DNA of 64,000 bases from Saccostrea echinata. Lineage: Eukaryota. Positions 56,752-63,612 of this stretch are shown here, piece after piece. Within the stretch, counting starts at the first letter, position 1. Each line of letters begins with the position of its first letter. A model generated the notes under the pieces. The model was not told where the DNA came from and made no database searches. It saw only the letters and a program-made list of their open reading frames with translations. The DNA lies in contig NW_026889758.1 in the NCBI RefSeq assembly GCF_033153115.1, positions 51,584,001 to 51,648,000 of the forward strand, read 5' to 3'. The translations under genes and the position numbers were made by a program.

Positions 56752-57992
56752 TTGCTGGAGAAATTCTTCAATGGTAAACATTTTCTTGCTTTGTAATTTA
56801 TTTTTTGTATGCCACAGGTAAATTATTAGTATCATTTATGTATGTTTAACAAGATTATCCAACAATCTATATAATAATGTATCTTTTAAGCATCACAAGC
56901 ACGCTTAAAATGTAAAGTTACATAGAACTGAAGTCCTTTCAGTATTCAGAGACTGTCAAGAGTCAATATTTAATTTAATGGCAGTCCTTGACACTTGTAA
57001 TAGTACTTGTTCCAATTAAATTTCAATTTTAATTTACATTGAATAAAATATTCATAATGTTTACATCAAGCTTGTTTTTTTCCCCCCCTAAATCTCTCAG
57101 AAATTGATTTGAAGCTCTTTTTCTAAGTTTTAAGAAGGACTATGAAAAAAGGTTAAGATAAAAGATATTTTTTATTCAGAATGATCTGAGAAAGTCTTAT
57201 AACGTTTCTTAGATTTAATTTCTCTGATTTAAATGCATAGGTGTGCTTTAGGTCAAACTCCGAACTTTTCCGAAAAAAGTTCATGCTGCATTTTCTTTAA
57301 TTTTTTATTACCAGGTAATCTATTAAGCGCCATAATTCTGACAATAGGAATTCCAATCTAATGATTTGCTTTTAACAGTAGCTACTAAATCATAAATATC
57401 CAATTATTTTTAAAATTTTTAAGCTACATGAAATTGATCAATGATGAAATGGCCATGTTTCAATAATTCATTGAATTTATGTCCAAGGACAGAAGTTGTA
57501 TGAGATATCACATAGCAACAATTAGTTACAGTATATACAAGCTTGTTCTTTGACCCTTTCACCTCAAATTCAATACATGTATAGGGATCATTTTTCATTT
57601 TTGAAATTGGAGTGAATCTGCAAACCAAGTCATATTATGTATAACCTTGTGACCTTTACCTTTCAGCTAAAGATCAGGAGGGATCTTTAAGTAATAGAGT
57701 CATCACCTTAATTAAGTTTCATTGCAAAAGCTTAAGGTCTTACGACACGTTGCTCAAATATCTGTTTTGTATCTATTCATAATATACAACAAATTAATTG
57801 TAATTATCATTTTCTTGTGATTTTAAAATAGTTTTTAAAATGTCTTAGTAGATAAAGACACAAAAAACCGTAATATTGGCAATGCTAGTGATTTCCAATA
57901 GTATTCTATGGTAAGGCCAAGATAAATAGATTGTCTGTTTCCTATTCCAACCTGAGGAAAAATAGGGTAGGTAGGGAAAACATTTAATTTTA

Positions 57993-59533
57993 TTAGCTCT
58001 TCTGAGCCAAAGGCTCAAAGAGCTAATGCTATGGCCATTTGTGCAGTGTGCGTAAACTTTTTAGAATATGGGCCATAACTCAAGAACCCCATGGCCAATT
58101 ATTGTCAAATTTATCACAGGGTATCCTTGGCCCAAGGGCTCCTGTTCACACTAAAACGAGGGTTGTGACCCTTAAACAAGGGGAGATAATTAGGAAAATA
58201 GAAATAAAAGTACTGGTTGCTAAAAAATCTTCTTCTCAAGAACCACTGGGCAGATTATCACTAAACTTACACAAGAGGATGAGGATATGCTGAAGATTAA
58301 AAATGTTCAAGGCATCACCCTGGGGCAAAAGGCGTGGTCTCAAGGTCACTTCAAAGTTGACCAAAAATTACATTTTATTAAAATGTTGATATTTTGCTTA
58401 CTATCAAGACTAGGATCATCAAATCTTGTCAGTTGATGCATTTGAGGACCTCATATCATGTCGACTCAAAAGTAGGTCATGGTGACCTACATTTAAAATT
58501 TTGCGGCCATTCTTTTTCAAAATGATTTAGAGGCATATTTTGAACAATTTAAGGCCTATGATCATCAAACTTTGTCAGTTGATGCATCTTGGGTCCTAGG
58601 AGTATGTCGACTAAAAAGTAGGTCACCTTGACCTACTTTTTGAATTTTATGGCTAATCTTTTTCAAAACAATTAAGGTCATAAGGTCATTAATTTGAATA
58701 CTGAGAGGTTTAGAATCATTCAATCTTGTAAGATGATGCATCTTGGGACAATAAAACATATTTATTAAAAAGTCACCATGACCTACTTTTTGAACTTTGC
58801 AGGTATTTGATTTCAAAGCATTTAAGGGGCATAATTTGGACATTTTAAGGCCTATGATCATAAAACTTAGTAAGTTGATGCATCTTGGGTTTTCGAAAAA
58901 ACGTCAACTGAAAAGTAGGTCAGTGTGACCTACTTTTCAAATTATATGACTAGAGTTAAATACATGTATTTCGGGTACTAATTGGCTTAGAATCATCAAA
59001 CTTTGTCAGTTGATGCATCTTGGATCTTAGTACCTGAAATATTTAATTCTAGTCATATAAATTGAAAAGTAGGTCATGGTGACCTACTTTTCAGTCCACC
59101 TACTCCAAGGACCCAAGATATATCAACTGACAGATTTTGATGATTATAAGCCAGATAGCACCCAAATATTAAATACAGCAATAAAATTTCAAAAGTAGGT
59201 CAGGGTGACCTACTTTGCAGTTGTCATACTCCAAGAACCCAAGATGCATCAACTGACAAAGTTTGATGATTCTAAGCCAATTAGTCCATGAAATATTTAA
59301 TTATAGTCCTATAAATTGAAAAGTAGGTCACGGTGACCTACTTATCAGTCGACCTACTCCAAGGACCAAAGATGCATCAACTGACCGATTTTGATGATTC
59401 TAAGCCAAATAGTACCTGAAAATATTTAATTAAAGCCATAAATTTTCAAAAGTAGGTCATGGTGGCCTACTTTTCAGTTGACTTACTCCAAAGACCCAAG
59501 ATGAATCAATTGACAAAGTTTGATGATTCTAAA
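57993..59533. mobile_element. HINE-like element with a 125-155-bp repeat array that switches orientation at ~59027
   Basis: 5' hairpin tagctcttctgagcc-aaa-ggctcaaagagcta after a T-run. Shares aaaatcttcttctcaagaaccactggg with the 50971 element. The unit atcatcaaactttgtcagttgatgcatcttggg occurs forward five times (58415-59025), then as its reverse complement four times (59066-59533). Confidence 0.8.
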
Positions 59534-60292
59534 GCGGATTATAAAACAGCGTAAACTGACCCAAACCAGGTTATACTCGAATAATTTGGCCAAGAATTAG
59601 AGTCATTCCTTATAATTTAATTTTAAAATCATTAAATATCTATGGGTGTAAAATTTCATTGCTTTTTATTAGTTCAAATTTGCCGCTCAATAATACAACC
59701 ATAGTAACGGAAGTGATGGGAAGCGAGGGGAGGTAAAAACTGATACATAGGCCTAGCAGCTTGTTTACATGTGGTAAGATCAAATTATTGTTTGAAGTTA
59801 AAGGTACATTTATTAAATCTGGAATTTTCCATGAATCCTGAGGACTGGAAATGGGAGGATTGTATGAATACAGATGATTCAGCTGGTTGGGGGGGGGGGG
59901 GGGGTGTCCCCATACCAAACCAGGTTATACAGAAATAATTTGTGTTCCTTTTTGGATATTAACCAATCAGAGGCTAGAATACAAACAAAATTAAATTATT
60001 ATAAAATATCTAGGGCTAATAACTAGAAACAATCTATGCTAGTATTTGCTGCATTTAATAATTTGCTTGTGTTAAACAATACAGGATTGTAGAGTTAGGG
60101 TACAAGTGCACAATGCTGACATCTGTACTTCCACGCACACACTGTCATAGGAAGTTGATGTTGCCATCATCTCATAACGAAAGATGGAAACTTTCTTCAT
60201 TAGTGTGCATGGGTATTATAATCATATATATTTTAAGCTCTTCACTGTAATGAAAAATGTTAACATTATACATATAGTTTATCAAGCATTAT

Positions 60293-61348
60293 CTATCCTT
60301 TCATTCCTGGCACAGCAGATTTTTTACACAGTCTTGCCAACAATGCTGACATCTGTAACAGGGACTGAACACCTTCTGCGATCCTCATATGAGTATATCC
60401 AATTTCTTTAATAAATTCAAGTTTCAAGAATTCTGGGATATTCTGGTTTTTGCAGACTCTGAAGATAATTGTGATTATATCCTCAGCTGAGTATCCCAGC
60501 TTCCAAAGATGCGCCATAGTTTTGTAAGCTTCTTCCACATTGCCATTAACACAGTGTTGAAGCATATCCTGTATTAACATGGGATGCGGTTCGTCACAAA
60601 CCTTGAAGACGTTTTCACTGTTAACATGTCCAAAACCTTGAAATGTTGACTGTAAGTTGTTCAGAGCCTGTCTCATGTCTCCTTGTGCTGTAAAGACAAT
60701 GGCCTCTAAGCCATCATCAGTATAACTAACAGATTCCTCCTCGCATACTTCCAGCAGCCTTTTCAATACTTGAGCATCAGTCAGCTTGGAGTATCGCAAA
60801 ACAGCACACCGAGACTGTATGGGCTCAATGATTTTTTCTGAGGAATTGCAGGCCAATGCAAATCTAGTGGTCTTTGAATAGATCTCCATAGTTCTCCTTA
60901 GCGCTTGTTGTGCTCCATCCGTCATACTATCTGCTTCATCCAGAATAATAATTTTGTGTCTTCCTTTGGGCAATGTAACTTTTTGTTGTGCAAACATTTT
61001 GATTTTGTTCCTCACAACATCAATACCCCTGTCATTTGATGCATTCATTTCTAAGACAGCATCTCTATATGAAGGCCCCAACATTGCTCTGGCAAGACAT
61101 AATATACTTGTGGTTTTTCCAGTTCCAGGAGGACCTGCAATGATTAGGTTTGGAACATTTCCGTCTCGGGCAAAAACTTCAAGACGACTGATGGTCTCTT
61201 CGTTACCAACTATATCGTGAAGCTTGACTGGTCTATATTTTTCAACCCACGGCTGTTCTTGTTGACGAGTACCTCCAGATTTAGAGGCTGCCTTTGAAGG
61301 AGGAATGTCTTCTATTTCCATTTCTTGATCAGCCATCTTTCCCGCCAT
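60293..61348 (-). CDS. RFC2: Replication factor C subunit 2 (clamp-loader 40-kDa subunit), single coding exon, 351 aa (347 aa from the second ATG at 61336)
   Basis: Uninterrupted ORF with PWVEKYRP, Walker [55 protein letters not shown] motif and [10 protein letters not shown]. Confidence 0.97.
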
Positions 61349-63058: not shown

Positions 63059-63612
63059 TTTTTAGCTCACCTCAACATGCCTCAACGAAGTCGAGATGAG
63101 CTTTTGCTATACCCCCGGTGTCGGTGTTAGCGTCGGCGTCCCGGTTAAAGTTTTAGGAGCAAGTCCATTCCCAAGTAACTATAAGCCCTACCTGGACCAA
63201 ACTTGCATGAATGATGCATCTAGGGATGGACACTACCACACTTGCTTCGGATACTGGATCTGACTTAGATTTTCCAGATGAGTGACCAGGTTAAAGTTTT
63301 TGAGCAGGTCCATTCCCAAGTAACTATTAGCCCTACCTGGACCAAACTTGCATGGATGATGCATCTAGGGATGGACACTACCACACTTGATTCAGATGCT
63401 GGATCTGACCTACATTTTCCAGATGAGTGACCAGGTTTAAGTTTTTGGAGCAGGTCCATTCCCAAGTAAGTATAAGCCCTTCCTTGACCAAACCTGCATG
63501 GATGATGCATCAAGGGATGGACACTACCACACTTGCTTCGGATGCTGGATCTGACCTACATTTTCCAGATGAGTGACCAGGTTAAATTTTTTGAGCAGGT
63601 CCATTCCCAAGT
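63059..63612 (+). mobile_element. 3'-truncated HINE with ~3.2 copies of a 145/146-bp repeat
   Basis: Starts tttttagctcacct like the 50971 element, with a (GTCGGC)-like microsatellite. gtccattcccaagt recurs at 63163, 63308, 63454 and 63599. Confidence 0.82.

What the first reader, a model, noticed from the sequence alone, without database searches (positions are those of the whole stretch)
58340..59472. Transposon-borne array of perfect estrogen-response-element palindromes that double as paired ROREs
Seen: perfect AGGTCAnnnTGACCT at 58474, 58620, 58917, 59071, 59197 and 59325, and one-mismatch copies at 58770 and 59454. The 3-nt spacer varies (tgg, cct, gtg, ggg, cgg) while the half-sites are kept. 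Most extend to AAAAGTAGGTCA-nnn-TGACCTACTTTT. TCAAGGTCA lies at 58340. Known: IR3 AGGTCA is the consensus ERE, and mollusc ERs are ligand-independent activators on EREs; AAAGTAGGTCA is a ROR/Rev-erb (HR3/E75) element; TCAAGGTCA is the ERR/SF-1 site. Inference: a mobile nuclear-receptor enhancer cassette between the 3' ends of L2HGDH and RFC2 that may spread ER- or clock-responsive sites through the genome.
Basis: partly seen in the sequence, partly recalled or inferred. Interest (0 to 1): 0.7.

Follow-up and report, generated by a model that had tools for sequence, protein, structure and literature searches.

The report
Jumping element supplies oyster's estrogen-type sites
The eight estrogen-response-type palindromes are the repeat units of one broken copy of a rolling-circle jumping element whose roughly 1,500 copies hold most such sites in this genome, and the sites likely persist because a host nuclear receptor binding them helps the element spread, not because this copy regulates the neighbouring genes.

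Summary
All eight AGGTCAnnnTGACCT sites are real (8 vs 0.1 expected). They are the monomer palindromes of a Helentron-type non-autonomous element (HINE). This copy starts at 57995, has lost its right end, carries an inverted 504-bp block and has lost 8 of 12 CpGs. The family has 1,478 left ends and supplies about 83-95% of the genome's 12,790 perfect sites (control 40). Spacer variation is mostly CpG decay. Half-sites are invariant across 10 monomer types, show no common variant in other organisms' runs and persist in a sister HINE whose outer hairpin arms changed; but in resting copies they mutate at near-background rate (0.86, not significant). So the constraint acts on the propagating element, not on insertions as host enhancers. 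The family also lies 5' of Helentron transposase ORFs (7/30; 3' 0/30; random 1/120). The genome encodes an ER with the CEGCKA P-box; binding is untested. Best reading: selfish receptor-binding arrays, like Helitron heat-shock elements in Caenorhabditis. An enhancer for L2HGDH or RFC2 is unsupported. The scan noted receptor-type half-sites in HINEs of another genome before.

The parts
57995..58024 (+). Left end of the HINE: subterminal inverted repeat with its nested inverted repeat, preceded by TT
   Evidence: 1,478 genomic matches to a 25-nt part of it
57995..59028 (+). Forward part of the element (left end, two Cg170-like units, position-specific monomers M1-M4, start of a fifth unit); about 91-92% identical to bases 1-1024 of full-length copies
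58340..58348 (+). TCAAGGTCA (ERR/SF-1-type site by recalled consensus) in the second unit; part of the family majority sequence
58468..58494 (+). M1 palindrome, IR3 core 58474-58488, spacer TGG (family CGG, CpG decay)
58614..58640 (+). M2 palindrome, perfect 27-mer, spacer CCT
58767..58790 (+). M3 palindrome with a 3-bp deletion in the left arm
58911..58937 (+). M4 palindrome, perfect 27-mer, spacer GTG
59029..59532 (-). Inverted block of four 126-129-bp internal units with IR3 cores at 59071, 59197, 59325, 59454; copy-specific rearrangement; the element's right end is absent
   Evidence: no such inverted array among 80 other copies, one had a single reverse box
59532..60000 (+). Second, unrelated dispersed repeat (95-97% identical copies) that begins here at the tip of a long hairpin whose left arm is present in most other copies; marks the rearrangement breakpoint
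60293..61348 (-). Intronless RFC2 ORF (351 aa), stop 825 bp from the last site; neighbour only
54899..55216 (+). Open frame holding the last coding exon of the L2HGDH-like gene, stop 3.3 kb from the first site; neighbour only
   Evidence: family assigned from upstream exons

Best explanation
The array is the central repeat of a truncated, partly inverted copy of a Helentron-type non-autonomous transposon family that holds most of the genome's perfect AGGTCA-n3-TGACCT sites, and these sites are likely kept by selection on the element itself because a host nuclear receptor of the ER/ERR type would bind them and favour copying. Shown: HINE ends, TT insertion without target duplication, about 1,500 copies of about 2.1 kb with a median of 8 perfect sites; the 12 half-site bases are fixed across monomer types and lineages but decay almost neutrally once a copy rests; the family is enriched, co-oriented, 5' of Rep/helicase ORFs and was carried inside one autonomous Helentron. 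Inferred: the palindrome arose by fold-back duplication of a single TGACC site that many oyster HINE monomers carry about 60 bp after an AAACTT box; a ligand-independent ER homodimer (or ERR) binds it; binding opens the donor copy or raises transposase transcription where the array precedes the ORF, so copies with intact sites leave more offspring. This window's copy is probably a dead end with no selected role for RFC2 or L2HGDH.
For: Anatomy: (59 of 80 copies with right end, 0 of 59 with a target duplication). Genome share: 12,790 perfect IR3 vs 40 control; 10,664 with family-type T..A flanks, 579 with neither flank; other spacers 0-8 total only 1,699 (minus). Lineage-level constraint: half-site columns invariant 12/12 vs 33/95 across 10 types (P 1e-5); shared variants 1/120 vs 70/889 (P 0.002); all mismatches 160 vs 265 expected but singletons 63 vs 73.5. 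Other organisms' runs: only the 3 spacer bases and one outer-arm G vary at 4% or more, and depth falls steeply in the flanks. Sister HINE with different ends: half-sites 12/12 and 11/12, outer arms 3/12 and 8/12, rest about 60%; hairpin energy drops from -10.2 to -5.2 and -3.6 kcal/mol. Non-palindromic RGGTCA in 7 of 11 other satellite-like units vs 1.9 expected, below-average variation in 5 of 5 tested, significant in one; AAAGTAGGTCA 42,832 vs 948 control, 8 of 12 random-sample hits single, mostly in a HINE whose unit does not align. Position: IR3 within 5 kb 5' of long Rep/helicase ORFs 7/30, 3' 0/30, random 1/120; two copies on different contigs share the same junction; that ORF has OTU, Rep, PIF1 and a weak endonuclease match. 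Host ER exon with CEGCKA P-box; mollusc ERs bind EREs and are constitutive (PMC2529310 passages).
Against: No binding, chromatin or reporter data. A fixed motif in source lineages fits any sequence-specific binder, including the element's own transposase. The sister family's perfect unit was found by a search that required perfect half-sites and changed flanks, so only its other unit (11/12) is a fair test. Outer arms are also invariant in 10 of 12 columns across types and nearly so across organisms, as a hairpin would be. In an unbiased ranking GGTCA was 4th of 5-mers and AGGTCA 5th of 6-mers, behind ACCAA/GACCAA-type words, so shared ancestry of monomers explains part of the recurrence. All HINE families, not only this one, pile up 5' of transposase ORFs, which nesting alone can produce (PMC5148889 passages); in the 20 loci added as a test the figure was only 2/20 vs 0/20. 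CpG decay shows the copies are methylated in the germ line, which argues against routinely open chromatin (inference).
Confidence: 0.5

Rival explanations
1. Structural or recombinational conservation: the 27-bp palindrome matters as a hairpin in the single-stranded rolling-circle intermediate, or is kept uniform because it is the longest identical tract between units and so the site of unit exchange; the ERE match is a by-product of folding back an old TGACC box.
For: Stable 12-bp stem with 3-nt loop, -10.2 kcal/mol; spacer mismatches 2.4 times background; both clean chimeric monomers switch at columns 67-83, in the right arm (2 of 2 clean, 3 found); outer arms 10/12 invariant across types.
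Against: Only 2 compensatory pairs among 448 stem mutations, 0 in 566 clustered monomers; flipped loops are rare (0 AGG among 64 M2 units); a sister family keeps the core and loses arm complementarity; single, non-palindromic TGACC boxes are conserved in other families.
Confidence: 0.2
2. The site is read by the element's own machinery (Rep/helicase or another Helentron protein) as a loading or spacing signal repeated once per monomer; likeness to nuclear-receptor sites is chance.
For: Constraint is in propagating lineages; TGACC recurs at a similar distance from an AAACTT box in five families; arrays cluster at autonomous elements.
Against: Four of 11 other satellite-like units lack RGGTCA; the configurations seen (IR3, DR0, extended half-sites) vary between families in ways typical of receptor elements (recalled); no zf-C4 match in the one transposase scanned.
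Confidence: 0.17
3. One reading: the insertions are host-selected ER- or clock-responsive enhancers, and this one regulates RFC2 or L2HGDH.
For: In this copy half-sites have 1 substitution vs 6.1 expected (P 0.016) plus one deletion; RFC2 starts 1.9 kb away; the singleton ratio was 0.55 in a narrower set; Helitron-borne heat-shock elements do rewire genes in worms (PMC6927752).
Against: The copy was picked for its perfect sites, so that P is biased; the palindrome-blind recount gives 0.86, and 0.87 in older incidental copies; one search had dropped 43 of 609 monomers; 8 of 12 CpGs are lost here; the second RFC2 copy shares no flanking sequence with this locus.
Confidence: 0.1

Closest known systems
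Cg_HINE elements of the Pacific oyster (PMC7492417; parts 1-3 of 7 and passages read; figure sequences and supplements not seen)
   Same: 5' subTIR plus inverted repeat, central 140-180-bp repeats in fixed orientation, 3' subTIR plus palindrome, TT insertion, no target duplication; first units resemble the window's 166-bp Cg170-like array.
   Different: Monomers of 146 and 128 bp with a 27-bp IR3 palindrome and ordered, position-specific types; only a vestige of the microsatellite; that paper's text names no receptor or transcription-factor motif. Whether this family equals one of its 11 elements could not be checked.
Helitron-acquired heat-shock elements in Caenorhabditis (PMC6927752; abstract, sections 6 and 12 read)
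   Same: A rolling-circle element carries clustered sites for one host factor and supplies most of them genome-wide (61% there, about 83-95% here); authors speculate on a selfish origin in the transposase promoter.
   Different: There binding and gene induction were shown by ChIP and RNA-seq; here nothing is shown beyond sequence; factor class (nuclear receptor) and element class (Helentron) differ.
DINE-1/HINE of Drosophila and mites (PMC4067079, passages)
   Same: Defining ends and TT target; non-autonomous partner of endonuclease-encoding Helentrons.
   Different: No autonomous partner with this family's own ends was found.
Consensus estrogen response element (probe AGGTCACAGTGACCT in PMC2529310, passages)
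   Same: Identical 15-mer; CAG is the M3 spacer and the sister family's spacer.
   Different: Binding by this oyster's ER untested; sites lie in methylated repeats.
Composite Helitron2 elements with several 5' ends in Fusarium (PMC5148889, passages)
   Same: Nested insertion builds composite 5' regions that move together.
   Different: Here whole 1-2.7-kb HINE arrays stack upstream of the ORF.

Membership tests
HINE (non-autonomous Helentron) | 5' subTIR with nested inverted repeat | tested here: met
   Window 57995-58024; same end in all 80 sampled copies by construction, boundary sharp
HINE (non-autonomous Helentron) | 3' subTIR and short 3' palindrome | tested here: met
   59 of 80 copies within 3 kb; 10-bp reverse complement of the left subTIR followed by a GGCCC/GGGCC stem. 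Absent from the window's copy
HINE (non-autonomous Helentron) | Insertion at TT, no target-site duplication | tested here: met
   78 of 80 left ends preceded by TT; 0 of 59 with a duplication of 5 nt or more
HINE (non-autonomous Helentron) | Central tandem repeats in fixed orientation, no coding capacity | tested here: met
   Forward-only arrays in the sample, one copy with one reverse box; window copy secondarily inverted; only short ORFs
HINE (non-autonomous Helentron) | Microsatellite after the left end (common, not universal) | tested here: inconclusive
   Only a short GT-rich vestige at that position
HINE (non-autonomous Helentron) | Autonomous partner with matching subTIRs | tested here: inconclusive
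   At least 150 Rep matches; 30 long ORFs examined; the family lies inside or beside them but none was shown to have its ends
Estrogen response element | AGGTCA inverted repeat with 3-bp spacer | tested here: met
   spacer length 3 in 751 of 761
Estrogen response element | Host ER with CEGCKA P-box | tested here: met
   L138 exon, best hits AncSR1 and ER DNA-binding domains
Estrogen response element | Receptor binding and transcriptional effect in vivo | not testable with these tools
   No ChIP, ATAC or reporter data; runs found were contigs only
ROR/Rev-erb element | A/T-rich 5' extension before RGGTCA, kept with the half-site | tested here: inconclusive
   Present and 10/12 invariant across types, but mismatches 1.25 of background and 3/12 and 8/12 in the sister family
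Exapted TE enhancer at this locus | Sites conserved after insertion | tested here: not met
   Family-wide singleton ratio 0.86, P 0.12; this copy's low count is ascertained
Exapted TE enhancer at this locus | Open, unmethylated chromatin and effect on neighbours | not testable with these tools
   Indirect only: 8 of 12 CpGs turned to TG/CA

The most novel reading that the evidence does not exclude
Oyster Helentrons have recruited the host's ligand-independent estrogen receptor: their non-autonomous arrays act as portable ER enhancers that, stacked upstream of the transposase exon, drive mobilisation in gonads, and in doing so they have written about nine in ten of the genome's perfect EREs, so the natural targets of the orphan mollusc ER would be mostly transposons.
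Probability: 0.25. Interest if true: 0.78.

Novelty: new variant of a known kind. Interest (0 to 1): 0.5.

Why it matters
What the constitutive, steroid-blind mollusc ER does in vivo is an open question. If most perfect EREs in an oyster lie in one Helentron family and are kept by selection on the element, ER ChIP that discards repeats would miss most of its sites, ERE scans of bivalve promoters would be dominated by one transposon, and insertion polymorphism could rewire genes as Helitron heat-shock elements do in worms. It also gives a concrete candidate function for the conserved boxes of bivalve satellite-like monomers. If binding fails, it remains a tidy case of a palindrome mimicking a receptor site.

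Tried and rejected
Chance cluster: rejected, though the sites are copies of one motif. MITE with terminal inverted repeats (suggested by the head-to-head arrays): rejected, other copies are all forward and have HINE ends. First conservation test used raw alignments with misaligned rows; one search gave singleton ratio 0.55 after dropping 43 of 609 unclustered monomers; one search gave 0.56-0.61 without restricting to type-invariant columns; the palindrome-blind recount (756 monomers) gave 0.86 and is the one relied on. Arm-to-arm hairpin repair: little support (2 compensatory pairs). A genome-wide count of symmetric double mutants failed because the pattern included the consensus base; it is uninformative and was not repeated. 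Read laying at the locus could not show presence or absence of the insertion, expression or chromatin: only short contigs, mostly from other copies; contigs guessed to be RNA covered RFC2 down to about 60053-60180. The second RFC2 copy is no empty-site control (flanks unrelated). Host silencing through the sites: rejected as the cause of conservation, since it would favour loss of the sites in active lineages (inference). Literature searches for a prior report (listings and abstract starts only) and passage searches in PMC7492417, PMC8268682 and PMC11136912 found none linking oyster HINE repeats to nuclear-receptor sites; subscription journals, Repbase and supplements were not seen. Scan look-ups by sequence and relatives were blank.

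Full report
Observation. They sit one per unit in a 146-bp and then a 128-bp tandem repeat. Only three are the full 27-mer; the site at 58770 has a 3-bp deletion; the last four units are on the opposite strand. RFC2 is confirmed; the upstream gene is a DAO-family oxidoreductase consistent with L2HGDH (name of the PDB entry recalled). Both genes point their 3' ends at the array, 825 bp and 3.3 kb away.

What it is. A DNA search of the window's own 923-Mb genome found 2,381 candidates, 40 scored. Their ends are those of a Helentron-associated non-autonomous element as defined in PMC4067079 (passages) and, for the Pacific oyster, PMC7492417 (parts 1-3). A 25-nt piece of the left end occurs 1,478 times with at most one mismatch. 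I fetched 80 of the first 100 listed exact matches, chosen without regard to the palindrome: 59 have the right end within 3 kb, median length 2,149 bp, 78 follow TT, none has a target duplication. Units come in a fixed order: two Cg170-like units, four position-specific monomers, a variable run of 128-bp types, terminal units. The window's copy matches bases 1-1024 at about 91-92%, then a 504-bp block is inverted and the right end is missing. The break joins the tip of a long hairpin in a second repeat at 59532-60000 whose left arm is present in most other copies. Eight of 12 CpGs in the forward part have become TG/CA against 55 of 941 other changes. It is an old, rearranged, probably immobile copy. 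That the host is an oyster is inferred from the Cg170-like satellite and from earlier scan notes.

Genome share. There are 12,790 perfect IR3 sites against 40 for the reversed control; all other spacers from 0 to 8 add only 1,699. 10,664 have the family's T..A flanks and 579 have neither, so the family holds between 83% and about 95%; 7.8 sites per sampled copy times 1,478 gives about 11,500.

Spacer. In element orientation 576 of 756 spacers are CCG, CGG or one CpG-deamination step from them; most of the rest are fixed type variants.

Where the constraint acts. Half-site columns are invariant in 12 of 12 across ten monomer types against 33 of 95 elsewhere (P 1e-5), and shared lineage variants number 1 of 120 against 70 of 889 (P 0.002). 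With monomers typed blind to the palindrome, all mismatches in half-sites are 160 against 265 expected, but singletons are 63 against 73.5 (0.86, P 0.12), and 14 against 16.1 in 62 older incidental monomers. Narrower tests gave lower ratios (0.55, which had dropped 43 of 609 monomers; 0.56-0.61); I rely. In this window's copy half-sites carry 1 substitution against 6.1 expected plus the deletion, but the copy was chosen for that. In contigs of four public runs from three coded organisms, one of them about 10% different in RFC2, only the three spacer bases and one outer-arm G varied at 4% or more and depth fell steeply in the flanks; contigs with both changed core and changed flanks would not have been laid. 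So copies that go on to propagate keep the sites; resting copies lose them at close to the neutral rate.

Sequence or hairpin. A sister HINE with different ends has two homologous units about 60% identical outside the palindrome; half-sites are 12/12 and 11/12, outer arms 3/12 and 8/12, and the arms no longer pair. The 12/12 unit was selected by the search; the 11/12 unit was not. Compensatory changes are 2 among 448 stem mutations. Single RGGTCA sites occur in 7 of 11 other satellite-like units (shuffle mean 1.9, maximum 6 of 1,000; 11 coding, low-complexity or single-locus units were dropped first) and at 4.6 per kb in arrays against 0.9 outside in 600 kb of evenly spaced DNA; they vary less than the rest in 5 of 5 families, significantly in one. 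AAAGTAGGTCA occurs 42,832 times against 948; 8 of 12 random-sample hits are single sites, 7 of them in a HINE whose unit does not align with this one. Against over-reading: GGTCA ranks only 4th among shared 5-mers, and the units share an AAACTT box about 60 bp upstream, so common ancestry contributes. For the hairpin view: a -10.2 kcal/mol stem, a spacer at 2.4 times background and two clean chimeras that switch in the right arm.

Link to the transposase. Around 30 long Rep/helicase ORFs (from at least 150 matches; 21 groups at 85% identity) perfect IR3 sites lie within 5 kb upstream in 7, downstream in 0, and in 1 of 120 random 5-kb pieces; in the 20 loci added as a test it was 2 against 0. 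All family blocks found were co-oriented with the ORF. Two autonomous copies on different contigs share the same insertion junction, so the array travelled inside that Helentron, whose ORF has OTU, Rep, PIF1 and a below-cut-off endonuclease match. Several ORFs begin directly after a TTTTAG acceptor-like sequence, so the stacks may lie in a 5' intron (inferred). Other HINE families stack there too, and nesting alone can build such composite 5' ends (PMC5148889 passages).

Candidate binder. The genome has 86 zf-C4 matches; among the 30 loci translated are an ER first finger with the CEGCKA P-box, ERR-, HR3/ROR- and FTZ-F1-like exons (names other than ER recalled; ER checked). Three mollusc ERs bind EREs and are constitutive (PMC2529310 passages). 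No binding by this species' receptors was tested.

Verdict. Membership in the HINE class is met on the defining features. The family works like the Helitron-borne heat-shock elements of Caenorhabditis (PMC6927752, sections 6 and 12) in supplying most sites of one type, but function is unshown. Most likely (0.5) the IR3 core is kept by selection on the element through binding of an ER/ERR-type host receptor; a structural or recombinational cause (0.2), the element's own protein (0.17) and host-selected enhancers (0.1) remain. No prior report was found in the searches listed under Tried and rejected; an earlier scan note reached a similar idea for HINEs in another genome, and its claim of recurrence in unrelated elements held here. 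Interest 0.5; new variant of a known kind.

Noticed in passing
window 60293-61348 and L269 (G000:C15:5823636-5824688): RFC2 is intronless and the genome holds a second intronless copy (95% amino-acid, 90% DNA identity, unrelated flanks); no intron-containing copy was found; a second variant shows in three runs. Looks like retro-duplication with loss of the parent.
   Followed up: partly
window 59532-60000; L157-L167: A roughly 545-bp dispersed repeat (1,402 candidates, 95-97% identical) with a 75-bp hairpin arm at its left end, sometimes in tandem; class not determined.
   Followed up: partly
L188-L207, L270-L309: Stacks of co-oriented HINEs of several families upstream, rarely downstream, of Helentron Rep/helicase ORFs; many ORFs start right after a splice-acceptor-like TTTTAG.
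   Followed up: partly
window 50970-53930: Complete Cg170-like HINE with 14 units of 166 bp and a GTCC microsatellite in the last intron of the L2HGDH-like gene; each unit has one TGACCC.
   Followed up: partly
window 63060-63612: Another HINE with 145-bp units carrying TGACCTACATTTT, the right arm of this family's palindrome without the left arm.
   Followed up: partly
L310-L324: Sister HINE with different ends and one AAGGTCACAGTGACCTT site per copy, the bulk of the 579 sites lacking both family flanks.
   Followed up: yes
window 57906-57994: Short piece of a further high-copy repeat directly left of the HINE (high depth); not characterised.
   Followed up: no
window 44620-45687: Minus-strand open frame with RING- and B-box-like cysteine patterns (TRIM-like, by eye), head-to-head with the L2HGDH-like gene.
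   Followed up: no
window 54020-54140: Long near-perfect palindrome of about 120 bp in the last intron of the L2HGDH-like gene (by eye).
   Followed up: no
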